Source of the DNA: Candidatus Woesearchaeota archaeon
Lineage (GTDB): Archaea > Nanobdellota > Nanobdellia > SCGC-AAA011-G17 > UBA489
DNA length: 59,735 nt
Assembly (NCBI GenBank): GCA_964390715.1
Contig: CAYMIM010000016.1
Location: 1 to 59,735 of the forward strand
Reading direction: 5' to 3'
Of the stretch, positions 211-55,444 are shown in pieces. Each line of letters opens with the position of its first letter. The first letter of the stretch is position 1. The notes beneath the pieces were generated by a model. The model was not told where the DNA came from, made no database searches, and saw only the letters and a list, made by a program, of their open reading frames with translations. A program made the translations under genes and the position numbers.

Positions 211-226
211 TTAATTTTTCCTATAT

Positions 227-268
227 ATTGTATATCCCATAGTCTTTATTGTATATCCCATAGTCTTA
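227..268. repeat. Tandem direct repeat, 2 x 21 bp (attgtatatcccatagtctt + 1 nt)
   Basis: attgtatatcccatagtctt occurs at 227-246 and again at 248-267, head to tail, in the rpl37e/DUF1399 intergenic spacer. The second copy runs into a TATA-like cttataag about 25 nt before ATG 294. Confidence 0.85.
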
Positions 269-293
269 TAAGAATAACCTATAAATCACTTCT

Positions 294-719
294 ATGCAAA
301 CTTTACCTTTGGAAATTTCAGTAGATCTAATTCAAGCTGCACAAAAATCTGAAGAAAATAGAAAATTATTCCAAGGAATAAATGTTGATCAGGCTTATGA
401 GCGTTATATTCAATATTTAGGATTGATTCAAAATCACCCAGGAGCTAATATTGCACCTACACGCGACATTGATTTAATGTGGCATGTTCATATGTTACAT
501 CCACGACAATATTACGAAGATTGCCAACGCCTCTTTGGAGACATTCTTGACCATGATGGTGGATTTGGTGAAGCTCCAGAAGAAAAACCAGAATTAGAAC
601 GAGTATTTGCTGAAACTGCCAAACTTTGGGAACAAACTTATAGCACTCCTTATTCTTCCGCTACAAACTGTAGAAGAAATTGTTCTAGTCGTTGTACTAA
701 ATGTAGAAGACGTGTTTAA
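294..719 (+). CDS. GRDP-like / DUF1399 domain protein with Cys/Arg-rich C-terminal tail
   Basis: ATG start. The motif DIDLMWHVHMLHPRQYYEDC matches the conserved D-L-x-W-H-x-H-x-L-x-P-x-x-Y-x-x-D-C core of the glycine-rich-domain-protein-like family. The tail is NCRRNCSSRCTKCRRRV. Confidence 0.6.
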   Translation: MQTLPLEISVDLIQAAQKSEENRKLFQGINVDQAYERYIQYLGLIQNHPGANIAPTRDIDLMWHVHMLHPRQYYEDCQRLFGDILDHDGGFGEAPEEKPELERVFAETAKLWEQTYSTPYSSATNCRRNCSSRCTKCRRRV

Positions 720-1297
720 ATTTTATTTATAATCTTTTCAAATCCTTCTTTTTTTGCAATTTCCCAGGCATGCTTATATTCTGGAGATTTACTGTCAAAT
801 TCTATGATATTATTTAGACGATTTTTTCCAAACATTTGCATGTAGAGAATAGCTAAAATTGCATTGACTGGGATATGATTGATGGTAAATCGTGTATTTT
901 TTTTGTATTTTTTTTCGAAATATTTAAAACAAGAATTAGCAGTATTATCTACAGCAATCAAATTATGGATTAGTTCGTGAATTAAAGTATCAATAAAATC
1001 ATTTTTATTTTTGTAAGGTCTTATAGTTAATGGACTAGAAAATGGTCTACAAAATCCAACAACATAACATGGAATCTTTTTTCTTTTCCATTTAAGCCCT
1101 GTAATCTCTGTAAGCGTTTGTAGAACTTCTTTTTCTCTTTTTTTCCATACTGGTGCAATATTTTTTATATATTGAATGGTTTTCTTTGGAGATGGGTAAC
1201 TTCTTTGCAGATGTCTACGAAGAGCGCTCTTTTCTGTGACTGATCTCCAATGTCCATCATATACTGAAGAATATTCAAAGATAACTTCTGGCATCAT
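716..1297 (-). CDS. Hypothetical protein with HExxH motif (possible metallopeptidase-like)
   Basis: The ORF is 716..1390, but its first start is GTG, abutting the tRNA 5' end at 1391. ATG-ATG at 1292-1297 (MMPEVIF...) sits about 25 nt downstream of a TTTTTATAG box (1318-1326). It contains HELIH. Confidence 0.5.
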   Translation of the reverse strand: MMPEVIFEYSSVYDGHWRSVTEKSALRRHLQRSYPSPKKTIQYIKNIAPVWKKREKEVLQTLTEITGLKWKRKKIPCYVVGFCRPFSSPLTIRPYKNKNDFIDTLIHELIHNLIAVDNTANSCFKYFEKKYKKNTRFTINHIPVNAILAILYMQMFGKNRLNNIIEFDSKSPEYKHAWEIAKKEGFEKIINKI

Positions 1298-1421
1298 AAG
1301 AGAAATGAGATTTAATTCTATAAAAACTATTCTTTTTCCGAAATCTCTAAAAGCAATCTTTTTATAGGCTATTTTGCACTTATTTCGCACGCAGGGGTGG
1401 CGGAGCGGTCAAACGCGCCAG

Positions 1422-1455
1422 ATCTTGACTACAAGTTAAAAAGTCGAGAGGCGAA
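1422..1455 (+). other. tRNA-Leu intron 1 (34 nt, non-canonical position 30/31)
   Basis: The central helix is cgcc(1416-1419):ggcg(1450-1453). The 3-nt bulges are aga (1420-1422) and aag (1454-1456). An 8-bp inner helix pairs 1423-1430 with 1442-1449, closing an 11-nt loop. Confidence 0.75.
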
Positions 1456-1462
1456 GCTTAGG

Positions 1463-1476
1463 AGTTTGACTAAGTC
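1463..1476 (+). other. tRNA-Leu intron 2 (14 nt, canonical position 37/38)
   Basis: The central helix is ctta(1457-1460):taag(1471-1474). The bulges are gga (1461-1463) and tca (1475-1477). A 2-bp inner helix closes a 3-nt loop. The junction could shift by one A (1463 versus 1477) without changing the product. Confidence 0.7.
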
Positions 1477-1546
1477 ACCTGGAGGCTTAGTGCCTACCTA
1501 GGTTCGAATCCTAGCCCCTGCATTTTATTTTCTTATTTCTCAGAAA

Positions 1547-1840
1547 TCAAACAACTTCCTCTTGCATTACATATTGCTTTATCTCGCTTACCTTTCTTGA
1601 ATTTAAAGCAACATGATGATCAGATCCTTTTCCTGTTTTCTTTGCTACGACAATAATCCATTCATCATTTACAAGCTCTTTCACGACCTTTTCAACGATT
1701 TTTCTTCCTTTGTGTGTGTTCTGATAATGGTCTGGTATTCCTTTTTTGACAAAATCAAGAGGCGTGTGCTTACCTCCCAAAATATTGGCACGTACCAACT
1801 TCCGCAAGATATGCTTTTTTATGATGTTTTCTTCTTCCAT
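1547..1840 (-). CDS. Hypothetical small basic protein (possible winged-helix)
   Basis: 97-aa ORF with an ATG start, divergent from the 1912..2247 regulator. I recognise no family. Confidence 0.4.
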   Translation of the reverse strand: MEEENIIKKHILRKLVRANILGGKHTPLDFVKKGIPDHYQNTHKGRKIVEKVVKELVNDEWIIVVAKKTGKGSDHHVALNSRKVSEIKQYVMQEEVV

Positions 1841-1911
1841 TCTTTCAATGCAATTGTATATCGATGTATATTAATGAAAGATTTAAATATGAAGAAAATA
1901 TAGCTATTCCT

Positions 1912-2247
1912 ATGACTAAAGAACTATTTCTCTTCTTGGACTATGTAGGCGATACTCCGCGCATGCGAGTCCTACAATATTTCATAGAAGGGCGTGAATT
2001 TGACTATATCCTCACTGATTTGCTTAATGCTGGTGTCAGCTGGGGGACTTTGAATAGTTTAGTTCCTCTTTTAGCTAAGAAAGGGATTATCATTAAGACT
2101 CGTAAAATCGGAAGAGCGACGCTTTACAAGATTAATCAAGAGAGTTTTGTCGCGCAACAACTGATAAAACTGTATGATTATTTAATTCTTGAGGAGTTAA
2201 CACGTCGAGAGCACTCTACGAAAGAAGTTGTTAAACAAATTGCTTAA
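1912..2247 (+). CDS. Winged helix-turn-helix transcriptional regulator
   Basis: The ORF is 1864..2247 and the likely start is ATG 1912 (MTKELFLFLDYVGDTPRMRVLQYF...). The pattern R-x-R-V-L-x-Y-F...G-x-S-W-G-T-L...L-x-K-K-G-I-I is typical of small archaeal wHTH regulators. Confidence 0.55.
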   Translation: MTKELFLFLDYVGDTPRMRVLQYFIEGREFDYILTDLLNAGVSWGTLNSLVPLLAKKGIIIKTRKIGRATLYKINQESFVAQQLIKLYDYLILEELTRREHSTKEVVKQIA

Positions 2248-2401
2248 ATGGCTAGCTAAGAAAAAATATACATAACAAGATTTAGGATTTTAATAGCTTT
2301 TTCTTTCTCTAACTGTGTTATCCGAAAAATTTACGGAAATGTCGGAAAACTTCTAAATATACATCAGAAAGATAGTTGACTTCTCAAAGTGCCTCATAGA
2401 G

Positions 2402-2409
2402 TTTATAAA
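2402..2409 (+). promoter_or_regulatory. TATA box (TTTATAAA), leaderless spacing to ATG 2431
   Basis: The 8-mer centre lies about 26 nt upstream of the start codon. Confidence 0.5.
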
Positions 2410-2430
2410 GTTCTAAATTAGTTTCTTTTT

Positions 2431-3303
2431 ATGGACAAAGAGAAAGCCTTGGTTGTTTTTCAAGATAAGAAGATTAGACGTATTTGGCATAAAAATGAGT
2501 GGTTTTATTCGGTTGTTGATATTATTGAAGTGCTTACTGATAGTCCTACGCCTCGACAGTATTGGGGTAAAATTAAGGATAGGGAGTTTATCAAGCTTGA
2601 ACTGTCCCCAATTTGGGTACTGTTGAAATTAATTGCAGAAGATGGAAAATTAAGAGAAACTGATTGTATAAACACTAAAAACGCCTTTAGACTTATTCAA
2701 TCTATTCCTTCTCCTAAAGCAGAACCTTTCAAACAATGGCTTGCACAAGTAGGACATGAACGCATACAAGAAATAGAAAATCCAGAATTAGCTCAGGACA
2801 GAGTGAAACAGTATTATGAACTTAAAGGTTATCCTAAGGACTGGATTGACAAACGGTTACGAGGCATAGTTATAAGACAAGAATTAACTGATGAATGGAA
2901 AAATAGAAATATAACTGAAGAAAAAGACTTCGCGATTCTCACGAATGAAATAAGTAAAGCAACTTTTGATAAAACTGTTCAAGAATATAAAGAATTTAAA
3001 GGACTCGAAAGAAAAAATAAAAATTTACGTGACCACATGACCAACTGGGAACTTATTCTTACTATGATAGGGGAAAAGGCAACAACAGATATTACTGTTA
3101 CCAGAGATTCTCAAGGCTTGGACGAACGCAAAGACTCGGCGCTTGAAGGCGGAACCATAGCCCAGCATACGAGAAAAGAACTTGAACAAAAAATAGGCAG
3201 ACCTCTTGTTTCACCAGATAATTTTCTCCACTTAGATACATCTAAGAAAAAACAAATTGAGAGTCCTAAAAAATGTTCATTGACTGATACTTCTAAAGCT
3301 TAG
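2431..3303 (+). CDS. Bro-N domain protein (DinD / phage antirepressor-like)
   Basis: The N terminus VFQDKKIRRIWHKNEWFYSVVDIIEVLTDSPTPRQYW fits the Bro-N fold signature. The C-terminal half is DinD-like. A TTTATAAA box lies at 2402-2409. Confidence 0.65.
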   Translation: MDKEKALVVFQDKKIRRIWHKNEWFYSVVDIIEVLTDSPTPRQYWGKIKDREFIKLELSPIWVLLKLIAEDGKLRETDCINTKNAFRLIQSIPSPKAEPFKQWLAQVGHERIQEIENPELAQDRVKQYYELKGYPKDWIDKRLRGIVIRQELTDEWKNRNITEEKDFAILTNEISKATFDKTVQEYKEFKGLERKNKNLRDHMTNWELILTMIGEKATTDITVTRDSQGLDERKDSALEGGTIAQHTRKELEQKIGRPLVSPDNFLHLDTSKKKQIESPKKCSLTDTSKA

Positions 3304-3332: not shown

Positions 3333-4130
3333 TTATTTTCTAGCAACTTCATCGACTTTTATCTGGAAAACTATTTTCGTCCAAATGAGCAAGACTATAC
3401 CTACGATCAAATAGAGTGTTAAGGGAGTTAAAGGCAAGAGAAAATCAATTCCTTTTGTGTAAGTGACGAAGAGTGAAGAGAGCAAATATAATACTAAACA
3501 TAACACGACTAAGTAGATAATAAAAGGAAGAATAATTCTGTGTGGTCTTTTTAGCATTTTTCCCGTGTGCTTGAGCGTTGTCAGGAAGGATTCATTGCCT
3601 AGACGCGTGAGCGCCGCATGCGTTACAAAGAAAAGCACGAAGAGCAATACTCCTTTTAAAATAAGCGTGTCTATTTCGTCGAAGATACTAAATGTTATTG
3701 GGATCATTAAGATGAGCAAGATAAACACTAAAGCTATAGCACTTATCACACAAAACTTCCAGAAAAACGATTTGAAAGACTTTATTGTCTTCTCTTTGAC
3801 GGTTTTCCAGACGATGCTTTGCGTCGCGCACCAGATGATGAACAACACTAGAGGGATGATGACATAGATGAAGAACATCGCTTCGTTGGTAAGACTTTGA
3901 AACTGATCTAAGAATTGCGCTACTTGCGCTTGACTCGCTCCTTGCGGTATTCCCGCCGCGTTATTAGCGAATCCTTGCAGTTGTGCTATGTAAGCTGCCA
4001 GCTTATTTCTTGCGAAGACTGTGAAGAAGAACGTCAAGAAAAAGAACGCCAACTCCGCTAATAAAAGCACGTAGATTTTCTCTTTCAAGAGTCTGAGGGA
4101 TTTTTTGAGGAACATGTTTAACGTAAACAT
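3333..4130 (-). CDS. Polytopic membrane protein (about 6 TM), last gene of the giant-protein operon
   Basis: Repeated 20-25 residue hydrophobic stretches. The start overlaps the stop of the giant gene by 13 nt; an alternative ATG is at 4113-4115. Confidence 0.55.
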   Translation of the reverse strand: MFTLNMFLKKSLRLLKEKIYVLLLAELAFFFLTFFFTVFARNKLAAYIAQLQGFANNAAGIPQGASQAQVAQFLDQFQSLTNEAMFFIYVIIPLVLFIIWCATQSIVWKTVKEKTIKSFKSFFWKFCVISAIALVFILLILMIPITFSIFDEIDTLILKGVLLFVLFFVTHAALTRLGNESFLTTLKHTGKMLKRPHRIILPFIIYLVVLCLVLYLLSSLFVTYTKGIDFLLPLTPLTLYLIVGIVLLIWTKIVFQIKVDEVARK

Positions 4131-7100
4131 CCTTGATTATAATTCTCAATCATTTTTGCTATGGTTTCATCGCCACATTGGGCGGTACGATATAACTCTT
4201 GAACATCCCATGAATCCGCATTCCATGTAAATGCTCTATCTATGAATCCCTCATTTAAAGCGCTTAGTAGCTGTGCATAATAAGCTCTTCTCAAGTCGAT
4301 CATTGATTGTGTTTTCCAAGGACTGCTTTGATCATTACAGTTGCTCACACCCTTCCAAGGATTTCTTATTGCGTCAACCATGTCACCACTTCCTCCACCT
4401 ATACCGATCTCAGAAAACTGTAGCGATATTTTTACAGGAATTTTAATATCGTTATTTTTAAATGTTTTGAGATAATACTCTTTCATCGCTTTAAAATCTC
4501 TTTGTTGAGGATAATAACTAACTGAATAATATGCACTCAATCCTAATATATCTACTACGTCGATTAATTTTTGGAATTCTATTTTTTCCTCATCAGAACT
4601 AAACAAATTAGCATCATCTCTTTTTCCGTTCAGATTATTAAAATTGGTGTTTATTCCTATTCTAACATTTTTTGGCATTTTTGCTCGGTATTCTTTAACT
4701 AAAGATAACCAATTAGATGTATACTCGAACAACGTTCTTCCCATCTCTCCTTGCATAGTGAAATCTACAATATTTGTACTTCTGGTTTGCGCTAATGCAT
4801 CATGAAGAGCTATCGCAATCGGTTCTAGAAGAACATCTTTATAAGAATAACCAGCTAAGTTTTCCACTGGGTTAAAAATATATCCATTCCGCCACGTTGT
4901 TCCTTCACCATCGCCTCCATAATCTAAATGAGGTCTTATAGACAAATCCATATCATTATCTAAAACTGCTGAAAAGCATGCCGTTAGCTTCTCTTTTATA
5001 TATTCAATGTTCTCATTGTCCACTATTTTATTTTCTGCATTTGGATAAGTCTTTGGCCACATATATCTTTTTACGCGGTCGTTTTTATCTATATATCCTT
5101 TTAGCGTTGGAATGATGTTTACTGCGGTTGCTCCTTTTTCTTTTGCTTTGAGCACAGTATTAGCACATTCTGCGTAATCTCTATCGATAAATAGACTAAT
5201 TGTCATTCCTAGTGGATGTTCTGCATTATTACCATTAGGATTACAACTAAGCAATTCAGTTTGTATCTCTTCTGAAGTGTCTTTGAGTTGTGTGTTTGTC
5301 GTGAAGATGCTATTTTCTTGCTGACTGGGATTCTTGTTTAATATTTTATTAAAATCACTACCACTGGTTGTTCCTGTAGAAGTTATAGTACTAGGATTTG
5401 TCGACTGGAAATTATTATCTGGTAAACTTTTTTCAGTAGATGTTTGTTTTTTCCTTGTTGGCATTGAAATAACATTCTTATTTGGTATTGCTCTCTTGAC
5501 TTTTATTGTTTCTGATGTTTTCTCTTGACCGTTTCTTGATAACGCAATAAAATAATATTCTTCATCCTCTTCGTCGTTTGTCAATAGAGCTTTCCAAGTT
5601 TGTTTATTAGGCTCGTTGAAAGGGATGCCAAGCGTAGTTATGATCTCATCTCTAGCAAGCCAATCCATTCTTAGTGTCTTTCTTACTTTCATCACTGTTG
5701 CCATTACTAATTCATCTTTACAATCTCCCCTCCACTCTAGCGAAAGATAAACATTTCTTCCCTGTAGAACTTCTACAATTACGTTTTTACCATCGCTCCA
5801 ATAGGTCTCTATAATACTGCAGACTTCTTTTGTAGTTTCTATTGTTTGTGTACTTGTTCCAGATTTTATAGTGAGCGTTAAAGCACTACTTTTTTGTCCA
5901 TTTACATTTATTACCTTTAAGTTATAAACATTTGGAGCAGCACCAGATGCTATTGTCAACTCAATTTCATTTTCATTAAGACGCTTCATAGGAAAATCCT
6001 TAGGATCGAGAATAGTACCGCTTGCTTCAATACCAAATATCTCATCAAATTTGCTTCCCTTGAGAATAATTTTTGTTTCTTTATCATTATTTATTTCTGT
6101 TTGACTTAAACTTGTTAATGCTGGTACTCTAACTGTTGTAGTTGTTACAGATGTTTGTTTTTTGAGACTTATTCGCGCTTCAAGTTCATAGGATTCAGCT
6201 AACTTAAACTGCATTCTTGCTCCATCAGGATCATCTAGGAGAGCACTACCTATCACTTGTTGATAGATCGCACGACCACTTTCAAAAGCATTTGGCGTAT
6301 TTGCGTTTTTGATAATGGCATCTGCTTCTTTTTCCTTGAGAGCAATATCCTCTTTCTTCAAAATATAATATCCTGGAATCGTTTCTCCTTGTTTTTCTGC
6401 TTCATTTACTACTTCTTGCGCAGTTTTCGCTAATGATGTATTTAGGTCAAGACGTGCGCTTACTTCCTTGATTGCATTCTTTGCTGCAGGCACATATAAC
6501 CAACACGTTCCTAAATCTCTTTCTCGATCATCTTCACCACATGTACCAACAGGAGACCATTTTACTTCATCACCACCAACACCAGGATTATATTTGGAAC
6601 ATTTTCTAATGATGCCAGATTGAATGAAACCACTTGAAACCGTACCTGCTGTGCCTTCTACCGCTCCTAGTTCTGTAATAGTTGGAGGACTTGTAGGAAC
6701 ACATTGTGCTGAAGTACTAATCTGTTTTTTTGCTTCATTCTGCGCAAATTGATCTGATATATAATCGATTGCAAAGCTCGTCGATACTTTTCCAAATCCA
6801 CATTCTACCTTTCGACCATAAATCTTGCTGTTAATTTCTACACAAATTTCTTTCATGCCTGATGGCAAGATAACATCTGGACTTTCATCTGCGAACGAAC
6901 CTCTGGGTAAACGTCTATTTTGCGTGATACCTTTACTGTCTTTCAAGACGTGTGGTTGAATAATAAATTGACCTGTGTAAGGATCAAGAGCTTGCATGTA
7001 GACTGAGTAAATTATATCTTCATTATCTCCTGCATAGATATGATATGTCACTTTGTACTGGCTTAAAGGCTGGTTACCTAAGTCTGAATAAGGAGCTTCA

Positions 7101-10100
7101 TCAAAGAACGCTGTGAACTGCGGAGGACTTTCTGGTTTTGAGATCTGATCAAACATATTGCCTAATCCCGGAGCTTTACCAAATATAGCTGCTTTACAAA
7201 TTTCTGTACCTAATTCTGGCAATGCTCCTCCATTATACATAGCGAACGTGTTCTTAGCATACGATTGTGTGAAATATTGCAGACTACCTACTGAGCTATC
7301 GACTGCTTTTTCAAATGATGAATATTCTCCACCACCACTTCCTGATTTACCTAAGAAGAAATTGACAATATTTCTGAAAATACCTTTCTTTGCACTGAAG
7401 AGAGCTAATCCTTCTTTCCATAAAATTTCACAAATACCATAAGAGCGTAGACGATCACAGATACCTACAGATCTTCCTGAAACTTTTGATGTGATTAAAC
7501 ATTGTCTATAGCCTTCGATGACTGAACGAATATTTTGCAGACCCGCATAGATACCTGATAAGCAAATCGGCATGACTACTCCACCTGGTTTACCGATACC
7601 GAGAGGTTCAATACCAAAGTTTGGCAAACATAAGAGTGCACTTCCAATGATTCCTGTCTGAATAACATTATCGACTTGCCATTCTCCACCTAAGTTACAA
7701 CGTGATGGGGGACAAATAACTGGATCACATGCGTTGAATAATAATTTACAATCTCCTGGACTCATGAATTCTGTGCAACTTGCACCAATACTAGCTGCTG
7801 CTGTGTCTATAGTATATGCACCTAATCCTCCACAATCTACGGATTGCAAAGGAATGACTTCACCACGGGAATATTTTCCACCTGCATTTTTCTTGTTGAT
7901 GACACCTACACAATCTTGTCCTTTTTTGATGTTGTCATAGATACCTTTATCGGGATTGTCTTTCTCGCTTTTTATTTTCTGATAGCGATCCATTAACTGT
8001 CCGTCAACGACGCCTAAATAGACATCACTAGGACTGCCCATACGACCATTCGGTTGGGATCGTTTATAGAGATCATATTTGGTTGGACGACCAGCAGTGT
8101 TGTACGAAACTTGCAGATAGTTGAAAGCGTCGATACTGATAAATTCTGTGTATCCTTTTTGACGACCTTGATCTAAAACTGCAACATTGGGATTGTGCTT
8201 GAATTCCCCTAATTGTGTTGTTGTGATTACACCATAAGACTCTTTGAGTTTTCCTATATAGTCATTATCCTTTTCTGTTGGAGCTCCCAGGCTTGTTCCT
8301 TTTTTTTGCACATCTTCTAGATGTGTCTTCATGTTAGTATTTATATCTGTTTCCCGTTGTAAAGGTAAAAAGCGAGTGCTATAGGTTCTCCATAAAAATG
8401 CATTATCTTCTTGTTTATCTTTAGGAGGATTAAATTTCTCCACAATATCTTTCTTGTATGTTCCTACAATTTTATCTGCATCAACTCCAGATGCTTTTAC
8501 CTCATCATAAGTTTTTATTCTTCCTTCTGTAAAGAATTTGTCAGTGAATTTCTTTTCTTCACTAGCTCTTGTCAATCTCGCATCTAGTTCATAATATTTG
8601 TCACGATATTGTTGATTACTTGGATCTTGGCTGACTAGATTTCCATAGTATCCTAGATTTTTCTTAGAATCATCATATTCTTTTCCTAAATCCTTGAATG
8701 CTTCCTGATTGTAATCTCCTTTGTTCGCTGCGTTTATTGCAGTTTGTGACTGAGAGATCATATGATCATATTCTGCCTGATTCTTGAAGACACACTCATC
8801 ATAACTAAGAGCTCTACAGTTTTTCGGATCTTCTGTGCCGAGATTTCTATACTCATCGTATTTCTTCTCGAAAGCTTCATTCGTTCTTTCTCTAGCAACT
8901 GCCCCTGAGCCTCCAAAGACACCTGAAAAGAAGTTTTTTACCCAGACAACTGCAAATGTGACGAAACAGAACTTCTTCCAATATTCTGTTATTTTTCCTA
9001 CATTGTCAATAATCTTATCCAATTTCGCCAACAAATCTTCAGTCTTAGCGATTTCATCTTCGTATGAGTCGGAGAACAAAGGAAGATCGAGAGCACGTTT
9101 CTCTATGGGAATGTGCAATGAGAATATTGCTTCTGAAAATGCAGCTTCGGTATTTGGACTTATCGTGATGGAGACTTCTTTTTTCATGTCAGCTTTTGTA
9201 AGTTTTATATTTCTTTTTGTATTTGTTCCTGTGTTGATTGATTTAGCTTGATTTTTTGTCAGTGATTCTTGCTGTTTTGTTTTATCTTCTATCAAAATAA
9301 TTTCACTGTCACGAATTTCCTTCACGAACCATTTTAGTTGGTCTTTATCATCTTGTAAGAGTTGTTCACCTTCACGATATTCTTTTGCTGGATATCCTTC
9401 CACTTCAATAGTCGCTTTTGATTTCTGACTATCAGGAACACTAGACCCTCCAATTAATGTTACATAGAAAATATCATTGGTACTTGGATCTTTGACTTCA
9501 GCGATTGCACTTTGGAAGTCTGATTGTAAACTGTTCAATAAGTCTAATAATTTCTGAATTGTTTCTTTTGTTGCGATAGATTGGTATTCTTCTGGTTTGT
9601 AGTTACGGAGCATAATTTCTAAGTGATTGATAGCACCTGCACGATCATTGATTCCAGGTAATAAGGCAAGATTAGCTATTTTCCAGTGCGCTGCTACAAC
9701 TTTATCCTTCACTACAGGATAAGCGTTAATGAGATGTTCATATTCAGCTATAGCAAGTCTGTAGAGCGTTACAGGACTGTCGGTTGCGACTATATTTGAA
9801 GGTTCTTGGGAAATGTTTTCTTGTTGTTTGAGTATATTTTCTAGAGGAGTTAAACGATTACTGACATCGTCTCTTGCTTTTATCAATAGACTTTTCTGAG
9901 CATTGTTTGTTTCTAGATTGATTGCTGCTTCCAATTCTACTCTTTTTTGCGCATAATAATTGCGAATGAGCTTGAGAAGGTTAAATGCCTGATTCTTCGT
10001 TGTTATTGTTACGCCATCTGTATTATCTATAAAATTTGTTTTTATTTTTTCTACAATATTGGAAAAATCTTTTGTTTCTTCTGTTTTTTCTTTCTTATCT

Positions 10101-11290
10101 GCAAGCGCATAATACTCCGTAATACTAGCTTTCAAAAGATCTTGTTTTTCTTTTTCCTTGGGGTTTTGTGTTACCTGCGTTGTAGAAGAAGACTGTATTT
10201 GATCTGGTCTTGGCACATCTGCTTTTGTTGCTTTGAGTGTTTTTGCTTCTCTGGTTACTTTGTTTTTGAGTGTAACTTCTAAAGAAGTTCCTTTGACGTC
10301 GCTAGCAATACTTTCGACATACCATGAAGACCCTTTATAGAGATCATCTCCTTCTGAAAGATATGCTGCTTGTGCATTGCCATTTCTATTCACTAAGAGA
10401 CGTACTTTATCGCTGATACTCTTAACACTATTGAGACGCAGGGTGTATCTGTCAAATAATCTTCCGTAGGTAATATATCCACCACGATTAGCGCTTAATG
10501 AACGGGAAGTTTGACCTACAGCCAGTGTAATAGGGGTTTGTGTCAATGCATTGAGTTGATTATCATAAACCATGAAAGAGGCTTGATTTCCTTTAACTTC
10601 TGTGGCTTGGAGATATCCTGCATAGAAACTGTGATCTTCTTTTGTTAGCTTCCATTCTTCTAAATTTTGTGCTGTTAAAATATCTTGGACAGGACCAAAG
10701 AATAATCCTTCTGATACATCGAAGAATATACGTGCGTCAATATCGAGAATAATTTCATCAGGCACTTTTCCTTCCTGTGGAATCTGACGAATAGGAATAA
10801 CTAATGTACCTAGATTATCATAAGTCAATTCGCGATTTTGAGGAACAATATGAGTGATACGACCAACAGATACTGGCAATCCTTGCGGAACCGTTGTGAC
10901 TTTTTGACTTCGAATAACAATGTTCCGAATTTTTGGCACGGTGATAGTAGGGTTAGTTGGTGTGCCGCTGATTAAAGCATGCACAAAAATACCAGAATCT
11001 TCCAATAAAGAACTACGAATAATACGTGGTTGATAATCGTCTACCTGGACAATAATATCTTCACCAATCAGATCTTCTGGACTATCTATAATGCCCTGTA
11101 AATCATCCAGTGTTTCATCGCGTATAGCTTCTCCTTGTCGTGTGAAATCATTTGGAATATCTTTAGAACGATCAATGGTTTGTTGTCCCGCTGAAGATGT
11201 TGGGTTGGCTGCATAAGCCTGCTCTAAGGGTAGCATCATGACTAGCAAAAGCAAGAAATACGTCGTCCACCTTTTTTTTTCTAAAAACAT
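4118..11290 (-). CDS. Giant secreted multi-domain surface protein (about 2390 aa)
   Basis: Uninterrupted ORF. The track start is TTG 11299; ATG 11290 gives MFLEKKRWTTYFLLLLVMMLPLEQAYA, a signal peptide. Also present are coiled-coil and Lys/Glu-rich segments, a hydrophobic segment (FCFVTFAVVWVKNFF), a Cys-rich core (about 6500-7910), an IPT/TIG-like domain (about 5860-6075) and a C-terminal TIM-barrel-like module (about 4118-5250). Confidence 0.85.
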   Translation of the reverse strand: MFLEKKRWTTYFLLLLVMMLPLEQAYAANPTSSAGQQTIDRSKDIPNDFTRQGEAIRDETLDDLQGIIDSPEDLIGEDIIVQVDDYQPRIIRSSLLEDSGIFVHALISGTPTNPTITVPKIRNIVIRSQKVTTVPQGLPVSVGRITHIVPQNRELTYDNLGTLVIPIRQIPQEGKVPDEIILDIDARIFFDVSEGLFFGPVQDILTAQNLEEWKLTKEDHSFYAGYLQATEVKGNQASFMVYDNQLNALTQTPITLAVGQTSRSLSANRGGYITYGRLFDRYTLRLNSVKSISDKVRLLVNRNGNAQAAYLSEGDDLYKGSSWYVESIASDVKGTSLEVTLKNKVTREAKTLKATKADVPRPDQIQSSSTTQVTQNPKEKEKQDLLKASITEYYALADKKEKTEETKDFSNIVEKIKTNFIDNTDGVTITTKNQAFNLLKLIRNYYAQKRVELEAAINLETNNAQKSLLIKARDDVSNRLTPLENILKQQENISQEPSNIVATDSPVTLYRLAIAEYEHLINAYPVVKDKVVAAHWKIANLALLPGINDRAGAINHLEIMLRNYKPEEYQSIATKETIQKLLDLLNSLQSDFQSAIAEVKDPSTNDIFYVTLIGGSSVPDSQKSKATIEVEGYPAKEYREGEQLLQDDKDQLKWFVKEIRDSEIILIEDKTKQQESLTKNQAKSINTGTNTKRNIKLTKADMKKEVSITISPNTEAAFSEAIFSLHIPIEKRALDLPLFSDSYEDEIAKTEDLLAKLDKIIDNVGKITEYWKKFCFVTFAVVWVKNFFSGVFGGSGAVARERTNEAFEKKYDEYRNLGTEDPKNCRALSYDECVFKNQAEYDHMISQSQTAINAANKGDYNQEAFKDLGKEYDDSKKNLGYYGNLVSQDPSNQQYRDKYYELDARLTRASEEKKFTDKFFTEGRIKTYDEVKASGVDADKIVGTYKKDIVEKFNPPKDKQEDNAFLWRTYSTRFLPLQRETDINTNMKTHLEDVQKKGTSLGAPTEKDNDYIGKLKESYGVITTTQLGEFKHNPNVAVLDQGRQKGYTEFISIDAFNYLQVSYNTAGRPTKYDLYKRSQPNGRMGSPSDVYLGVVDGQLMDRYQKIKSEKDNPDKGIYDNIKKGQDCVGVINKKNAGGKYSRGEVIPLQSVDCGGLGAYTIDTAAASIGASCTEFMSPGDCKLLFNACDPVICPPSRCNLGGEWQVDNVIQTGIIGSALLCLPNFGIEPLGIGKPGGVVMPICLSGIYAGLQNIRSVIEGYRQCLITSKVSGRSVGICDRLRSYGICEILWKEGLALFSAKKGIFRNIVNFFLGKSGSGGGEYSSFEKAVDSSVGSLQYFTQSYAKNTFAMYNGGALPELGTEICKAAIFGKAPGLGNMFDQISKPESPPQFTAFFDEAPYSDLGNQPLSQYKVTYHIYAGDNEDIIYSVYMQALDPYTGQFIIQPHVLKDSKGITQNRRLPRGSFADESPDVILPSGMKEICVEINSKIYGRKVECGFGKVSTSFAIDYISDQFAQNEAKKQISTSAQCVPTSPPTITELGAVEGTAGTVSSGFIQSGIIRKCSKYNPGVGGDEVKWSPVGTCGEDDRERDLGTCWLYVPAAKNAIKEVSARLDLNTSLAKTAQEVVNEAEKQGETIPGYYILKKEDIALKEKEADAIIKNANTPNAFESGRAIYQQVIGSALLDDPDGARMQFKLAESYELEARISLKKQTSVTTTTVRVPALTSLSQTEINNDKETKIILKGSKFDEIFGIEASGTILDPKDFPMKRLNENEIELTIASGAAPNVYNLKVINVNGQKSSALTLTIKSGTSTQTIETTKEVCSIIETYWSDGKNVIVEVLQGRNVYLSLEWRGDCKDELVMATVMKVRKTLRMDWLARDEIITTLGIPFNEPNKQTWKALLTNDEEDEEYYFIALSRNGQEKTSETIKVKRAIPNKNVISMPTRKKQTSTEKSLPDNNFQSTNPSTITSTGTTSGSDFNKILNKNPSQQENSIFTTNTQLKDTSEEIQTELLSCNPNGNNAEHPLGMTISLFIDRDYAECANTVLKAKEKGATAVNIIPTLKGYIDKNDRVKRYMWPKTYPNAENKIVDNENIEYIKEKLTACFSAVLDNDMDLSIRPHLDYGGDGEGTTWRNGYIFNPVENLAGYSYKDVLLEPIAIALHDALAQTRSTNIVDFTMQGEMGRTLFEYTSNWLSLVKEYRAKMPKNVRIGINTNFNNLNGKRDDANLFSSDEEKIEFQKLIDVVDILGLSAYYSVSYYPQQRDFKAMKEYYLKTFKNNDIKIPVKISLQFSEIGIGGGSGDMVDAIRNPWKGVSNCNDQSSPWKTQSMIDLRRAYYAQLLSALNEGFIDRAFTWNADSWDVQELYRTAQCGDETIAKMIENYNQGCLR

Positions 11291-11291
11291 T

Positions 11292-13268
11292 TTACTCAAG
11301 CGCTGGCTTCTTCACCTCATTATTTTGTTTTTGCACAGCTTCATAAACCTTACTTACCTCTTCGATAGACTTGGGTGTTGGACCACGGAGCGAATAAAAG
11401 GTTACCTTTCGCGCATTAGCAACTGCCGCTCTTGATATGGTCCAGCTTGTTGAGGAACCACCGCCAATGATCTGCTCTAATTTTGTAGCTTCGAATTTTT
11501 GCTTAGCACATTGTCGCGTTGTTAGCCCCGCAATACCTAAAACACCTTTCTGTGGAACATCATTACAAATCTCTATTTCTTTTTCTGGGAAATTAAATCC
11601 ACCAGCATTCTCGACAATAATTCGTGTGGTAACTAGCGTATCTCCTGGAATCAGCTTGATGGTTTTTTGATCTGGATAGAGGATTGTTGTAGCATATTTT
11701 TTCTCTTGATTGTCTAAAGTAATCATGATTTTTTCTGTCTGATAAGGAGAACGCTCTTGCTGATTATCGATTACTTTTATATCGAGAGTCACTTCTTTAA
11801 TAGGTTCGAGATAGACTACTACTTCTCCTGACGCAGTATTTGTTGAGACTGGCAATTCACCCCGATGGTATCCTTCTTTCTCCGCGATCATCACCCCATC
11901 AGAGCATTGTGGAAACATAGTTGTGAGCGCCGCTCCACGAGCATCCGCAAGGGTTACTCCACGATCACAGACTTGATCTAGACACTTATATGAGATTCTC
12001 GCGTTTGGCAACTCTTGGAGACTATCATCAGCACGATACGCCGCCGCGACTATAGTTAATTCTTTACCTGGATACTGGCAAATCTCCGCTTGAGCATCAA
12101 AACTTACAGGGGTGACCCGATTTTCCCGGGGTTGGTTATGGTCGATGACAACGAGTGTCGCGAACTGAAACATCGAGTCACCATCCTGCAAAGAAATGAG
12201 CATGGGAAACTTAAGATTGTAGACAAAATGGTTGTCATTCATACAGAACAGTGGCAGGAGGAAACGACTGGCGGCATTTTCAGCAGTGAATGGTTTTCCA
12301 CGGAGGATTTCTTCATTTTCTCCTACCACGTCCATGAGGAGCGGCCATTGCTCTTGATAACTAAAGAGAATACTCGCGTCTGTCTTTTTTGACAACGCGT
12401 CAATAACAAAGGATTTAGCGTCTTTCGCGTTTTCCCCATATCGCGATCCTTCAATGCGAAGCGTTGGGAAATTCAGAGCAAATATTTTCTTGAGCTCCTT
12501 TTGAACGTTTGTTTTTAGCCAAGCGCGCGGAGCGCATTGCGTGTCAATACCAGAGAAGGGAATAGTATCATAGACTGTCATCATGTCTATCGCTCGGTTC
12601 TCTAAGTAATAGTCTGTGCTTTCTGCTTGCATCAGTTCAACAGCAGTTTGGTAAAGTTTTCCCATCCTGGACTTGATGGTCTTCTTGAAAGTGGTAAATG
12701 TAAAGGAAAAATCATCTTTGGTCAAAGTCAAAGGATACTTTGTTTCTATTATCATCGTTTCTTCATTGATGATGATTTTGGAGCGTGGCTGCTCTTCACT
12801 GAATCCATACCCCTGATCTTTTAATGGCTTGAGATCATTGAGACATTGCTTTATGTTTTCATCGATATACGCCGCGAGTCCGGTTTCCATCTGCGCTTTG
12901 GTAGGAACTTGATTTTTCCGCAAACTATTTTCCGTCTCCGTCAACCAATAGGCTACCTGACCTGATCCTGTATTAAAAATATCAAGCGCATCTCCAAAAG
13001 GACTAATGAGTGATGGTACTTGTTCTTGCGGCAATTCCATATATCCTCCTTGTGCGCTCATGATCGCGATGCCTTGCGTCGCTAAAGTTTCCAAGCACGT
13101 GTCTACGTAGATTTTCGCGCGCTCCGCCTGTGGCGGGACTGTAAGAGATTTTTGCAGTTCTTGTCCTGTAAACGCTGAGAAAATTTCCTGACGGAAAGTA
13201 AAGACTGTCACACCTAACGCGAGGATTACAATACCCAGAATAATGAACGCCGTGACTTGTCCTTTCAT
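11292..13268 (-). CDS. N-terminally anchored extracellular protein (658 aa), uncharacterised
   Basis: ATG start. The N terminus MKGQVTAFIILGIVILALGV is a KGQ-plus-hydrophobic stretch resembling an archaeal class III (pilin-like) signal or anchor. Its stop is 1 nt before the giant-gene ATG, and its start overlaps the upstream stop (TAATG). Confidence 0.7.
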   Translation of the reverse strand: MKGQVTAFIILGIVILALGVTVFTFRQEIFSAFTGQELQKSLTVPPQAERAKIYVDTCLETLATQGIAIMSAQGGYMELPQEQVPSLISPFGDALDIFNTGSGQVAYWLTETENSLRKNQVPTKAQMETGLAAYIDENIKQCLNDLKPLKDQGYGFSEEQPRSKIIINEETMIIETKYPLTLTKDDFSFTFTTFKKTIKSRMGKLYQTAVELMQAESTDYYLENRAIDMMTVYDTIPFSGIDTQCAPRAWLKTNVQKELKKIFALNFPTLRIEGSRYGENAKDAKSFVIDALSKKTDASILFSYQEQWPLLMDVVGENEEILRGKPFTAENAASRFLLPLFCMNDNHFVYNLKFPMLISLQDGDSMFQFATLVVIDHNQPRENRVTPVSFDAQAEICQYPGKELTIVAAAYRADDSLQELPNARISYKCLDQVCDRGVTLADARGAALTTMFPQCSDGVMIAEKEGYHRGELPVSTNTASGEVVVYLEPIKEVTLDIKVIDNQQERSPYQTEKIMITLDNQEKKYATTILYPDQKTIKLIPGDTLVTTRIIVENAGGFNFPEKEIEICNDVPQKGVLGIAGLTTRQCAKQKFEATKLEQIIGGGSSTSWTISRAAVANARKVTFYSLRGPTPKSIEEVSKVYEAVQKQNNEVKKPALE

Positions 13269-15771: not shown

Positions 15772-15815
15772 AGGTAATAAGAATCTATCTCATTGCTAGT
15801 TAGTAGTAATTATAG

Positions 15816-15888
15816 TGGGCCCGACAGGATTTGAACCTGTGACCTCCTCCATGTCATGGAGACGTCATAACCGCTAGACTACGGGCCC
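15816..15888 (-). tRNA. tRNA-Val(GAC)
   Basis: The reverse complement is GGGCCCG-TA-GTCT-AGCGGTTA-TGAC-G-TCTCC-ATGACAT-GGAGG-AGGTC-ACAGG-TTCAAAT-CCTGT-CGGGCCC-A. It forms a 73-nt cloverleaf with no intron. Confidence 0.85.
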
Positions 15889-16522: not shown

Positions 16523-16608
16523 AGCCACCGGAGGGATTTGAACCCACGGCCCCCTGTTCTCTTGACGAGATACAAGACAGGAGCTCTACCAGGCTGAGCT
16601 ACAGTGGC
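16523..16608 (-). tRNA. tRNA-Thr(UGU) with 12-nt canonical intron
   Basis: The reverse complement is GCCACTG-TA-GCTC-AGCCTGGTA-GAGC-T-CCTGT-CTTGTA[TCTCGTCAAGAG]A-ACAGG-GGGCC-GTGGG-TTCAAAT-CCCTC-CGGTGGC-T. CTTG pairs with intron CAAG as the BHB central helix. There is one U-U mismatch in the T stem. Confidence 0.75.
16559..16570 (-). other. tRNA-Thr intron (12 nt, position 37/38)
   Basis: The 4-bp helix is C32-U33-U34-G35 paired with intron C7-A8-A9-G10. The 3-nt bulges are UA|U and AG|A. Confidence 0.65.
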
Positions 16609-23681: not shown

Positions 23682-24368
23682 TTAAATGATTTTGAGCACT
23701 CCTGGACGTGACATATAGATTTCACCTTCTTTAATGAGCTCCTCGATTATTTTCTCAGCCGCTTCCTCTTCTGTTTCTGAAGTTTGAATAAGCATATCAA
23801 TATCCATGCCCAGCTCTCCTTGACTTTCCAGTACATTAAGTATTTTTTGTCTCGCGATCTCATTTCCTGACAATGGAGCATGTGTCGCGATAAGCTCTTC
23901 ACGCGTCTCACGATTATTTGGCTCTACTATTATTTGAGGAATTTGTTTTTTTGGCAAGACATTTCCCCTCATCTGCACCAGCTCCGCTTTCCTGACTTTC
24001 ATCCACGCAGCATTCCCTAATTTTTTTACAATTTCCGGCACAAGGTAAATTTCATTTTGATATTGTTTTGGTCTGCCAATAACTAAAATGGAATCTCCTA
24101 TATTTAATCCAGCTACTACTTTGACATCTTCCTTGAACGCGCGAATCGCGATCTGCGCACTACCATCTTCAATAGTTATTGTCGCGTAATCAACTGTCGC
24201 GTTGGTAAATACTTCGGTAATTGTTCCAAGAATATTGACGCGAGCTACCTTCACTCCCTTTACATCCAAGTAATTAGGCTCCCATTCACCCTCTTCACGA
24301 ATATAGTCAGCGTCAACTATTTCCGCTATCCAGAGTTTGTAGGCAGTCTGACGGCCTTGCATGGTCAT
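23682..24368 (-). CDS. OB-fold nucleic-acid-binding protein with C-terminal winged helix (RPA32/Stn1-like)
   Basis: The OB core reads VARVNILGTITEVF...ITIEDGSAQIAIRAF...GDSILVIGRP. The acidic wH-like tail is EEAAEKIIEELIKEGEIY. ATGA overlap with the mcm stop. Confidence 0.55.
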   Translation of the reverse strand: MTMQGRQTAYKLWIAEIVDADYIREEGEWEPNYLDVKGVKVARVNILGTITEVFTNATVDYATITIEDGSAQIAIRAFKEDVKVVAGLNIGDSILVIGRPKQYQNEIYLVPEIVKKLGNAAWMKVRKAELVQMRGNVLPKKQIPQIIVEPNNRETREELIATHAPLSGNEIARQKILNVLESQGELGMDIDMLIQTSETEEEAAEKIIEELIKEGEIYMSRPGVLKII

Positions 24369-39878: not shown

Positions 39879-40112
39879 ATGATTGTCGAATTAAGCAAAG
39901 GTCGGCAGATTACTATCCCTGCTGAGATTCGGGAGCAATTAAACCTGAAAATAGGATCAAAATTAGAGATAACTAGAAGAAAAGATGAGATTATTTTAAA
40001 ACCCTTGGGAGAAGGTCTAGAAAAATTATTTACTGAGGCCAAAACCTTAAAACCAAAACATAATCTTAGCCCTCAACAAATGGATGAGTTGAACGAGGGA
40101 ATGTTTCGATGA
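39879..40112 (+). CDS. vapB: AbrB/SpoVT-family antitoxin (VapB-like)
   Basis: MIVELSKGRQITIPAEIREQLNLKIGSKLEI is a swapped-hairpin barrel motif. The start is uncertain (ATG 39867 or 39879); TTTATAAC at about 39846-39853 favours 39879. Confidence 0.6.
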   Translation: MIVELSKGRQITIPAEIREQLNLKIGSKLEITRRKDEIILKPLGEGLEKLFTEAKTLKPKHNLSPQQMDELNEGMFR

Positions 40113-40480
40113 AATTTCTTGATAGCAATGTTCTCGCTTACGCTTTTTATAGTAATGAACATACGCAACGGTGTCAAGAGATTATTCGTGAAGGGGGATT
40201 AATTAATACAGCGAATTTAGTTGAAACCTATAATATTCTTCAATTTGAAACAAGTGCTGAACGCGCTACGGCCGCTATCAAAGAGCTTCTCAAATCTAAT
40301 TTAAAAGTTGTAGACTTAGATATTAATCTTGTTTTTGAAGCGCTCAAAAGAACCGCGAAACATCAACAATTAAAGTTTATGGATTTAATTCATTATGTTA
40401 CTAGTCTTCTTTATAATTGCAGCGAAATCATCAGTTTTGATAAAGATTTTGATAATTTAGAAATTCCTCGAACTACTTAA
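40109..40480 (+). CDS. vapC: PIN-domain toxin VapC
   Basis: MKFLDSNVL supplies the first acidic residue, with further D and E positions downstream. ATGA overlap with vapB. Confidence 0.7.
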   Translation: MKFLDSNVLAYAFYSNEHTQRCQEIIREGGLINTANLVETYNILQFETSAERATAAIKELLKSNLKVVDLDINLVFEALKRTAKHQQLKFMDLIHYVTSLLYNCSEIISFDKDFDNLEIPRTT

Positions 40481-41277: not shown

Positions 41278-41278
41278 G

Positions 41279-55222: not shown

Positions 55223-55289
55223 AGGATATAAATGTATCCGCTACTATATAAATGCTTCTATCAAAAATAGTGGGTGTATTTGGAAATGC

Positions 55290-55366
55290 TCATCCGTAAA
55301 CGCTTCCGCTATCTTCTTCGCGCTTGTCGGCTTCTCCGCGATGAGCAACTCGTATTTTTCAGGCAT
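55290..55366 (-). pseudogene. Displaced topA 5' fragment (copy B)
   Basis: The minus strand reads ATG-MPEKYELLIAEKPTSAKKIAEAFTDE then diverges and stops. In the 52-nt core I aligned there are three third-position differences from the live topA start. Confidence 0.8.
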
Positions 55367-55444
55367 GATTATCTTTCTGTTGTTTGTATATTTTTATGAA
55401 GTGCAGCGAAAAAAGATAAACCCAGCACATGTTCTCTATTCAAA

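What the first reader, a model, noticed from the sequence alone, without database searches (positions are those of the whole stretch)
1391..1522. tRNA-Leu(UAG) interrupted by two introns, one at non-canonical position 30/31
The 132-nt gene gives a legal cloverleaf only if two segments are removed. Intron 1 (1422-1455, 34 nt) splits the 5' strand of the anticodon stem. Intron 2 (1463-1476, 14 nt) sits at the canonical 37/38 site. Splicing creates a perfect CCAGG/CCUGG stem and a CUUAGGA loop (U33, UAG, G37, A38). This is consistent with the long variable arm and A73 of a tRNA-Leu. Both introns show textbook BHB geometry. Intron 1 has a 4-bp helix cgcc:ggcg flanked by 3-nt bulges, plus an 8-bp inner helix. 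Intron 2 has ctta:taag flanked by 3-nt bulges. The outer helix for intron 2 forms only after intron 1 is removed, which suggests ordered splicing. Multi-intron tRNAs are best known from Thermoproteales, so this is worth noting for this lineage and for splicing-endonuclease type.
Basis: seen in the sequence. Interest (0 to 1): 0.65.

Follow-up and report, generated by a model that had tools for sequence, protein, structure and literature searches.

The report
Two-intron tRNA-Leu(UAG) gene, DPANN archaeon
This is a real archaeal leucine tRNA gene split by two short protein-spliced introns, one at the usual site and one inside the anticodon stem; such genes are already known in these tiny DPANN archaea, so it is a well-supported but fairly ordinary find.

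Summary
Window 1391-1522 (+) is a genuine tRNA gene: Rfam tRNA scores 42 bits against a threshold of 29, with a 57-nt insert in the anticodon arm. Removing 1422-1455 and 1463-1476 gives an 84-nt cloverleaf that ARAGORN calls tRNA-Leu(UAG).

Related genes support both junctions. Syntenic relatives downstream of rpl37e carry the same gene without intron 1. In L056 the exons are identical to the predicted spliced product. L019, labelled Woesearchaeota, has both introns, with compensatory changes in the splice helix, anticodon stem and T stem. Across 20 distinct DPANN tRNA-Leu(UAG) genes with a 30/31 intron, the splice helices are 96% paired against 74% in shuffles.

- Intron 1 has no outer helix, so it is a relaxed motif, not a textbook one.
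- Ordered splicing is only an inference. The two required conformers exclude each other.

No RNA data exist. The window holds no splicing endonuclease, but relatives encode a roughly 190-aa alpha-type EndA about 5 kb from the gene.

Position 30/31 and multi-intron tRNAs in DPANN archaea are already described. This is a new member of a known kind.

The parts
1358..1368 (+). A/T-rich TATA-like box (CTTTTTATAGG), centred about 27 nt upstream of tRNA position 1; likely archaeal promoter
   Evidence: Read directly from the sequence. Similar TTTTTATA / CTATAAAAG boxes lie at about the same distance upstream of the orthologues in L040, L109 and L056. Promoter function is inferred from general knowledge of archaeal promoters and was not tested.
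1391..1421 (+). 5' exon: acceptor 5' strand, D arm, G26, anticodon-stem positions 27-30 (CCAG)
   Evidence: Rfam tRNA alignment; ARAGORN cloverleaf; identical to the intron-1-less orthologue L056.
1416..1419 (+). 5' strand of the central 4-bp helix of splice motif 1 (CGCC = tRNA positions 25-28); followed by the 5' bulge AG|A at 1420-1422
   Evidence: Pairs with 1450-1453. This helix is 97.5% paired across 20 homologues, and two of its pairs show changes on both sides.
1422..1455 (+). Intron 1, 34 nt, at non-canonical position 30/31. Inner helix 1423-1430 with 1442-1449, loop 1431-1441, 3' strand of the central helix GGCG 1450-1453, and last two bases AA of the 3' bulge
   Evidence: Absent as one clean 34-nt gap in syntenic orthologues L056, L093, L040 and L109, and present in L019. 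Covariation. DNA contigs of runs X1 and X2 carry it unchanged, so it is genomic and not an assembly artefact.
1456..1462 (+). Middle exon GCTTAGG = G31, C32, U33, anticodon U34-A35-G36, G37
   Evidence: The same heptamer is contiguous with CCAG in the intron-1-less orthologues.
1463..1476 (+). Intron 2, 14 nt, at canonical position 37/38. The central helix pairs CTTA (1457-1460) with TAAG (1471-1474); bulges are GG|A and TC|A
   Evidence: ARAGORN in intron mode on the intron-1-removed sequence reports exactly this 14-nt intron. In 35 distinct homologous 37/38 introns, the four bases before the last two pair with CUUA in 89% of cells. Shifted registers give 50% or less.
1477..1522 (+). 3' exon: A38, anticodon-stem 3' strand CCTGG, long variable arm, T arm, acceptor 3' strand, discriminator A73; no encoded CCA
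1523..1531 (+). T-run (TTTTATTTT) directly after A73; likely transcription stop
   Evidence: Read from the sequence. Function is inferred from general knowledge of archaeal termination at T-runs.

Best explanation
Window 1391-1522 (+) is a functional gene for tRNA-Leu(UAG) of a DPANN archaeon related to MAGs labelled Woesearchaeota. It is probably transcribed from the TATA-like box at about -27 to the T-run after A73. The 132-nt precursor carries two protein-spliced archaeal introns.

Intron 1 (1422-1455) lies between positions 30 and 31. Exon bases 25-28 (CGCC) pair with intron bases GGCG to form the 4-bp central helix. The cuts fall after the second base of the unpaired triplets AG|A and AA|G. 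An 8-bp intron hairpin serves as the inner helix. No outer helix exists, so this is a relaxed motif.

Intron 2 (1463-1476) lies at 37/38. C32-A35 pair with UAAG, with bulges GG|A and UC|A. The anticodon stem serves as the outer helix.

The splicing endonuclease EndA cuts all four sites and an RNA ligase joins the three exons. The product is an 84-nt tRNA with stem CCAGG/CCUGG and loop CUUAGGA.

Shown: gene identity, junctions, and conservation and covariation of the splice helices. Inferred: the enzyme, the ligation, the transcription signals and any order of removal.
For: - Rfam's tRNA model scores 42 bits over exactly 1391-1522.
- ARAGORN returns tRNA-Leu(tag), 84 nt, only after both segments are removed. 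It recovers intron 2 exactly once intron 1 is removed.
- Orthologues lie downstream of the same rpl37e gene. L056, L093, L040 and L109 lack precisely the 34 nt of intron 1. L056 has exons 100% identical to the predicted spliced sequence.
- L019 has both introns with compensatory changes. C27 to U is matched by G to A in the intron partner (1451) and by G43 to A. One T-stem pair changes from U-A to A-U.
- Across 20 distinct genes with a 30/31 intron, the pairs of the central and inner helices are 96.3% paired, against 73.8% in shuffles (0 of 500 reach the observed value). Slid registers give 54% or less. Six of 8 pairs change on both sides.
- For intron 2, the central helix is paired in 89% of cells across 35 distinct introns, against 50% or less when shifted.
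- A sample of homologues contains every combination: no intron, 37/38 only, 30/31 only, and both.
- An alpha-type EndA (PF01974 + PF02778) is encoded about 5 kb from the gene in relatives L056, L109, L121 and L079.
Against: - No RNA evidence exists. Only DNA metagenome runs hold the locus, so splicing and junctions are not seen directly.
- No EndA gene was found in any of the 44 ORFs of 120 aa or more that were scanned against Pfam.
- Intron 1 lacks an outer helix, which strict-specificity EndA types are reported not to accept (PMC5829648, PMC3239211).
- The EndA seen in relatives is a plain alpha-type. It lacks the 5-6-residue insertion before the catalytic His that N. equitans and ARMAN-2 carry.
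Confidence: 0.9

Rival explanations
1. The gene has a single 46-nt intron, giving tRNA-Leu(AAG). This is the ARAGORN single-intron reading of the precursor, with the intron inserted after 1425.
For: ARAGORN -i on the unspliced sequence and on the whole window reports tRNA-Leu(aag) with a 46-nt intron.
Against: - The resulting anticodon stem contains an A-C mismatch and an irregular junction.
- These junctions carry no bulge-helix-bulge geometry.
- The intron-1-less orthologues read CCAG-GCTTAGG, so they contain the UAG anticodon loop that this model discards.
- A34 tRNAs are not expected in archaea. This last point rests on general knowledge and was not tested.
Confidence: 0.02
2. The locus is a decaying tRNA pseudogene whose anticodon arm has been disrupted by insertions and is no longer processed.
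For: No RNA evidence of expression or splicing. The default ARAGORN run misses it. Variable small ORFs and a BRO-N gene flank it, so the neighbourhood is in flux.
Against: - The exons are intact and identical to those of L056.
- Both insertions carry complete splice motifs that covary across 20 genes.
- Compensatory changes against L019 maintain the mature stems.
- A TATA-like box and a T-run are in place.
- The same arrangement recurs in many independent contigs.
Confidence: 0.04
3. The gene structure is as described, but removal is strictly ordered: intron 1 must go first, and only then does the substrate for intron 2 exist.
For: - Splice motif 1 uses C27 and C28 in its central helix and A29, G30 and G31 in its bulges. 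It therefore excludes the anticodon stem that serves as the outer helix of motif 2.
- The conformer with motif 1 formed evaluates about 3 kcal/mol lower than the one with the anticodon stem formed (-40.6 against -37.6).
Against: - The anticodon stem (4 bp plus G31-C39) can be drawn in the full precursor, with intron 1 as a side hairpin. The statement that it forms only after removal of intron 1 is therefore too strong.
- The central helix and bulges of motif 2 are present in both conformers.
- For M. kandleri pre-tRNA-Glu, the canonical intron was removed before the non-canonical one in vitro (PMC5829648).
- Genes with only the 30/31 intron or only the 37/38 intron exist, so each motif works on its own.
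Confidence: 0.35

Closest known systems
Multi-intron archaeal tRNA genes with non-canonical bulge-helix-bulge introns (Thermoproteales; e.g. Pyrobaculum tRNA-Pro with introns at 25/26, 37/38 and 56/57)
   Same: Short protein-spliced introns defined by a 4-bp helix flanked by 3-nt bulges. One is at 37/38 and one is elsewhere in the same gene. Position 30/31 is on the published list of non-canonical sites (PMC4090602).
   Different: The lineage is a DPANN archaeon, not a crenarchaeon. No evidence was sought here for the large-scale intron transposition described in Thermoproteales.
Disrupted tRNA genes of DPANN archaea (Ca. Micrarchaeum ARMAN-2, Nanoarchaeum equitans, surveyed Woese-/Pacearchaeota MAGs)
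   Same: - Same superphylum.
- High load of non-canonical and multiple introns with relaxed motifs (PMC3239211, PMC5829648).
- The Micrarchaeota tRNA-Leu(CAA) genes fetched here (L031, L035, L029) also have a 30/31 intron using positions 25-28 as the central helix.
   Different: - ARMAN-2 uses an epsilon2 EndA and N. equitans an (alpha-beta)2 EndA.
- The relatives of this window show a single full-length alpha-type gene of about 190 aa.
- That gene lacks the 5-6-residue insertion before the catalytic His seen in NEQ205 and ARMAN-2.
- Whether a beta subunit exists elsewhere is unknown.
Canonical archaeal 37/38 tRNA intron (strict hBHBh')
   Same: After removal of intron 1, intron 2 has the standard geometry: the anticodon stem as outer helix, C32-A35 in the central helix, and cuts after position 37 and before position 38. 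The tRNA-Thr(UGU) at 16523-16608 has the same kind of intron, 12 nt long.
   Different: The inner helix is reduced to at most one G-C pair closing a 5-nt loop. In the primary transcript the outer helix competes with splice motif 1.

Membership tests
tRNA-Leu (class II tRNA, archaeal) | Cloverleaf with 7-bp acceptor stem, D arm, 5-bp anticodon stem with 7-nt loop, and T arm with GTTCGAATC | tested here: met
   Rfam RF00005 at 42 bits over the full model 1-71. ARAGORN gives an 84-nt cloverleaf after removal of both introns.
tRNA-Leu (class II tRNA, archaeal) | Leucine anticodon, long variable arm, discriminator A73 | tested here: met
   Anticodon UAG, U33, G37; 4-bp variable stem with 5-nt loop; A at 1522. 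About a hundred homologues share the variable arm and A73. Isotype-specific covariance models (tRNAscan-SE) were not available.
Archaeal bulge-helix-bulge (EndA-spliced) intron | 4-bp central helix flanked on opposite strands by two 3-nt unpaired stretches, with cuts after the second base of each | tested here: met
   Both introns meet this in the window. For intron 1, the central helix is 97.5% paired across 20 homologues, with changes on both sides in 2 of its 4 pairs. For intron 2, 89% of cells pair in register across 35 introns.
Archaeal bulge-helix-bulge (EndA-spliced) intron | Strict form hBHBh': an outer helix h and an inner helix h' on either side | tested here: not met
   - Intron 1: the inner helix is 8 bp and covaries (95% paired). 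An outer helix cannot form; only G24-C32 could pair.
- Intron 2: the outer helix is the anticodon stem and is mutually exclusive with splice motif 1. The inner helix is at most 1 bp.
- Intron 1 is therefore a relaxed form. It is still inside the known substrate range of broad-specificity EndA (PMC5829648).
Archaeal bulge-helix-bulge (EndA-spliced) intron | Actual excision and exon ligation in RNA | not testable with these tools
   Only DNA metagenome runs hold the locus, and no RNA run was found. Indirect support comes from intron-less orthologues identical to the predicted ligated exons.
Archaeal bulge-helix-bulge (EndA-spliced) intron | Genome encodes a splicing endonuclease able to take relaxed, non-canonical substrates | tested here: inconclusive
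   - No PF01974 hit in any of the 44 window ORFs of 120 aa or more that were scanned.
- Relatives L056, L109, L121, L079, L075 and L151 encode an EndA homologue near the tRNA gene. For the four scanned (L056, L109, L121, L079) it is a 189-207-aa ORF with both Pfam domains.
- For the L056 protein, the best solved matches are NEQ205 (1e-33) and M. jannaschii EndA over its full length (3e-30).
- Subunit composition and specificity are unknown.
Multi-intron tRNA with non-canonical intron at 30/31 | Two or more introns in one tRNA gene, one of them between positions 30 and 31 | tested here: met
   Junctions 1421|1456 and 1462|1477. 30/31 is listed among known positions (PMC4090602).

The most novel reading that the evidence does not exclude
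The 30/31 intron of tRNA-Leu(UAG) may be one old, homologous intron family spread through Woese-/Pacearchaeota-like DPANN archaea. It shares sequence beyond what the structure requires: it begins AU(U/C)(C/U)U and ends AGA(A/G)G-N-C-N-AA. It has been lost repeatedly, even between genomes whose exons are identical.

In this reading it is processed by a plain alpha-type EndA that lacks the insertion loops so far linked to broad specificity. If so, a homotetramer-like enzyme would handle a relaxed motif without an outer helix. These lineages would also offer a natural presence/absence series for studying how archaeal tRNA introns are gained and lost.
Probability: 0.2. Interest if true: 0.5.

Novelty: new member of a known kind. 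Interest (0 to 1): 0.3.

Why it matters
For annotation, this gene is missed by default bacterial-mode tRNA finders. Single-intron mode mis-calls it as Leu(AAG). Genomes of this lineage would then appear to lack tRNA-Leu(UAG), or to have a wrong anticodon set, unless tools aware of multiple introns are used.

For biology, it adds a well-documented case to the known link between DPANN archaea and disrupted tRNA genes. The same 30/31 intron recurs in many DPANN tRNA-Leu genes, with clean presence/absence differences between close relatives. It also points to an alpha-type EndA in this lineage whose substrate range would be worth testing. None of this changes current understanding of archaeal tRNA splicing.

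Tried and rejected
- Default ARAGORN on the window finds only tRNA-Val. This is a tool limitation, not evidence against the gene.
- Plain minimum-free-energy folding of the precursor and of the spliced forms does not return a cloverleaf or the splice motifs. I therefore evaluated hand-drawn conformers instead.
- ARAGORN's single-intron reading, Leu(AAG) with a 46-nt intron, is rejected on stem quality and on the orthologues.
- RNA evidence was sought with two run searches and one read-laying. Only DNA contigs came back. X10 holds a related gene with a variant intron 1, not a spliced form.
- Looking up the window's Topo VI A protein to find its contig of origin found nothing.
- EndA in the window: none among the 44 ORFs of 120 aa or more that were scanned. 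A tblastn with an M. jannaschii EndA sequence written from memory gave only a non-significant window hit (E 0.68). It gave clear hits in six related loci, four of which were confirmed by Pfam and one by PDB search.
- Four rows in three loci of the automatic 30/31 classification (L071/L152, L075, L086) were false. These are Leu(CAA), or a long canonical intron containing a second CTTAGG. They were removed by hand.
- The relaxed Rfam search found no further tRNA-like genes in the window.
- The sigma-70 promoter and intrinsic terminator scan is not applicable to archaea and found nothing relevant.

Full report
**Observation**

Rfam's tRNA covariance model matches exactly these coordinates on the + strand. 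It scores 42 bits against a gathering score of 29, with E 1.5e-5. The alignment shows acceptor, D and T arms intact and a 57-nt insert between CCAG and CUGG of the anticodon stem.

Default ARAGORN misses the gene. I removed 1422-1455 and 1463-1476 and reran ARAGORN. It then returns an 84-nt tRNA-Leu(tag) with:
- a 7-bp acceptor stem;
- a 5-bp anticodon stem CCAGG/CCUGG and loop CUUAGGA;
- a 4-bp variable stem;
- the T loop TTCGAAT and discriminator A73.

**Splice motifs**

In the archaeal bulge-helix-bulge motif, each cut falls after the second base of a 3-nt bulge that follows a strand of the 4-bp central helix. This rests on general knowledge and is consistent with PMC5829648.

Intron 1 fits this geometry:
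- CGCC (1416-1419, tRNA positions 25-28) pairs with GGCG (1450-1453).
- The bulges are AG|A (1420-1422) and AA|G (1454-1456).
- An 8-bp inner helix joins 1423-1430 to 1442-1449.

Intron 2 fits as well:
- CTTA (1457-1460, positions 32-35) pairs with TAAG (1471-1474).
- The bulges are GG|A and TC|A.

Intron 1 differs from the textbook form in one respect. Nothing upstream of position 25 can pair with C32 onward, apart from one possible G-C pair. There is therefore no outer helix, and the motif is a relaxed one.

**Comparative evidence**

A D-arm pattern scan of one genome per species returned 35 loci. Most are DPANN archaea: Micrarchaeota, Iainarchaeota, Nanoarchaeia and 'Woesearchaeota'.

L019 comes from a groundwater MAG labelled Candidatus Woesearchaeota. 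It carries the same gene with both introns. Against the window it shows linked changes:
- C27 becomes U.
- The intron partner, window 1451, changes from G to A.
- G43 becomes A.

This single exon base thus covaries with both its pre-splicing and its post-splicing partner. One T-stem pair also changes from U-A to A-U.

After hand correction of four rows, the classification gives:
- about 62 genes without introns;
- 28 with only a 37/38 intron;
- 9 with only a 30/31 intron;
- 14 with both, including the window and L019.

BLAST shows that L056, L093, L040, L109 and L019 share the window's upstream gene. That gene is the C-terminus of ribosomal protein eL37, judged from the zinc-ribbon sequence. 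L093 also shares the ORF at 716-1390.

In the alignment of these orthologues, L056, L093, L040 and L109 lack exactly 34 nt. L056's exons are identical to the predicted spliced window sequence. No other deletion register gives that product, so junction 1421|1456 is fixed by natural intron-less alleles.

**Covariation test**

I cut 20 distinct genes with a 30/31 intron to equal-length constructs around both splice sites and aligned them without gaps. On the 8 pairs of the central and inner helices:
- 96.3% of cells form standard pairs, against 73.8% in shuffles, and 0 of 500 shuffles reach that value.
- Sliding the 3' partners gives 54% or less.
- Six pairs change on both sides.
- The pair between position 27 and the intron occurs as U-A (9), C-G (6) and A-U (4).

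One caveat applies. The classification script chose the intron start where a CAG preceded it and, among alternatives, the register with the most central-helix pairs. This slightly favours helix 1. Helix 2 played no part in the selection and is 95% paired.

For intron 2 the exon strand is fixed by the search pattern, so only one side can vary. In 35 distinct introns, the register-correct tetramer pairs in 89% of cells, against 50% or less for shifted registers.

**Rival readings**

ARAGORN's single-intron mode calls the precursor tRNA-Leu(aag) with a 46-nt intron. That reading has a mismatched stem and no splice motif. It also discards the UAG loop that the intron-less orthologues contain, so I reject it.

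A pseudogene reading is unlikely, given the identical exons, the compensatory changes, the covarying splice motifs and the flanking TATA-like box and T-run.

**Order of splicing**

Splice motif 1 and the anticodon stem use the same bases, so they cannot coexist. The evaluated energies are -40.6 kcal/mol for the cloverleaf with motif 1 formed. The cloverleaf with the anticodon stem formed and intron 1 as a side hairpin evaluates at -37.6.

Removal of intron 1 first is plausible but unproven. In the one published time course I read, the canonical intron went first (PMC5829648).

**Enzyme**

None of the 44 window ORFs of 120 aa or more that I scanned matches the EndA Pfam families.

I ran a tblastn with an M. 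jannaschii EndA sequence recalled from memory, used only as a lead. It hit six related loci. Pfam confirmed N-terminal and catalytic EndA domains in the four ORFs scanned, of 189-207 aa, from L056, L109, L121 and L079. An ORF with a tRNase Z-type metallo-beta-lactamase domain lies next to EndA in L056, and similar ORFs lie next to it in L079 and L121.

For the L056 protein, the best solved relatives are N. equitans NEQ205 and, over its full length, the M. jannaschii homotetramer subunit. The 5-6-residue insertion that NEQ205 and ARMAN-2 carry just before the catalytic His is absent.

In L056 and L109 this gene lies about 5 kb from the tRNA-Leu gene. In the window's genome it may therefore lie just beyond the left end. 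Subunit composition cannot be decided from this.

**RNA data**

None. The locus is found only in DNA metagenome runs. Their contigs carry both introns unchanged.

**Comparison with what is known**

- Non-canonical introns at 30/31 are listed in a review of archaeal tRNA introns (PMC4090602).
- Tests with ARMAN-2's epsilon2 EndA established that DPANN archaea carry many non-canonical and multiple introns (PMC3239211).
- A later survey that included one Woesearchaeota and one Pacearchaeota MAG reported alpha4-type EndAs with an extra loop, associated with increased tRNA gene disruption in DPANN (PMC5829648).
- I found no paper describing this particular 30/31 intron family of tRNA-Leu(UAG).

**Verdict**

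The feature is a new member of a known kind, in a lineage where such genes are expected. Its practical value is correct annotation, plus a clean comparative series for intron gain and loss and for EndA specificity.

Noticed in passing
window 16523-16608 (-): A second intron-containing tRNA: tRNA-Thr(UGU) with a 12-nt canonical 37/38 intron. The central helix pairs CUUG with CAAG, and the bulges are UA|U and AG|A. Default ARAGORN misses it; Rfam (54 bits) and ARAGORN -i find it. tRNA-Val(GAC) at 15815-15888 (-) has no intron.
   Followed up: partly
L056 679-1251 (-) and 1286-2194 (+); L109 5772-6359 (+); L121 3584-4207 (-); L079 163-732 (-): In relatives, an alpha-type splicing endonuclease gene lies about 5 kb from tRNA-Leu(UAG). 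In L056, L079 and L121 it sits back-to-back with a tRNase Z-like metallo-beta-lactamase gene, forming a small tRNA-processing cluster. If synteny holds, the window's copy lies just left of position 1.
   Followed up: partly
window 217-1390 and 1523-3303: In L019 and L056 the tRNA gene follows rpl37e closely, about 50 nt downstream in L019. The window instead has extra ORFs between and after them: a GRDP-like ORF at 294-719, an unknown ORF at 716-1390 (also present in L093), an ORF at 1864-2247, and a BRO-N domain protein at 2431-3303. This suggests insertions of mobile or viral origin next to the tRNA gene.
   Followed up: partly
window 24365-27997 (-): An MCM helicase of 1210 aa is interrupted by an intein. 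Intein_splicing and LAGLIDADG domains sit between the two parts of the P-loop domain.
   Followed up: no
window 4118-13268 (-): A 2393-aa ORF followed by a 658-aa ORF, both without any Pfam match. Parts of the large ORF (about 7000-7800) have homologues in many of the fetched DPANN contigs.
   Followed up: no
window 40477-41289 (-): A Trm5/Tyw2-family methyltransferase. It is a candidate enzyme for m1G37, the modification expected on G37 of this tRNA-Leu. A PIN-domain ORF lies next to it at 40109-40480.
   Followed up: no
window 53924-58000: An AbiEii-type nucleotidyltransferase toxin gene (53924-54616) has an unannotated 201-aa neighbour (54617-55222). Both lie in a stretch of lower G+C (31-35%, against about 39% elsewhere), possibly an acquired island.
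   Followed up: no
L043, L044, L134, L151 (T-arm region); L042, L137, L153 (D-arm region); L010, L014, L016, L018, L020, L022, L023, L027, L028, L030: Other DPANN tRNA-Leu genes carry insertions in the T loop or T arm and in the D loop, and often two or three per gene. Micrarchaeota Leu(CAA) genes (L031, L035, L029) have their own 30/31 intron built on the same exon bases 25-28.
   Followed up: partly
run X10, contig laid on window 1449-1525: A small 2025 run of unstated type holds a near-identical 3' part of the gene: the end of intron 1, the middle exon, intron 2 and the 3' exon, with 1 mismatch. The inner part of intron 1 is different (…TTCAACTGTTTACTTAAAAAGGTTGGAA). This is a third two-intron orthologue.
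   Followed up: no
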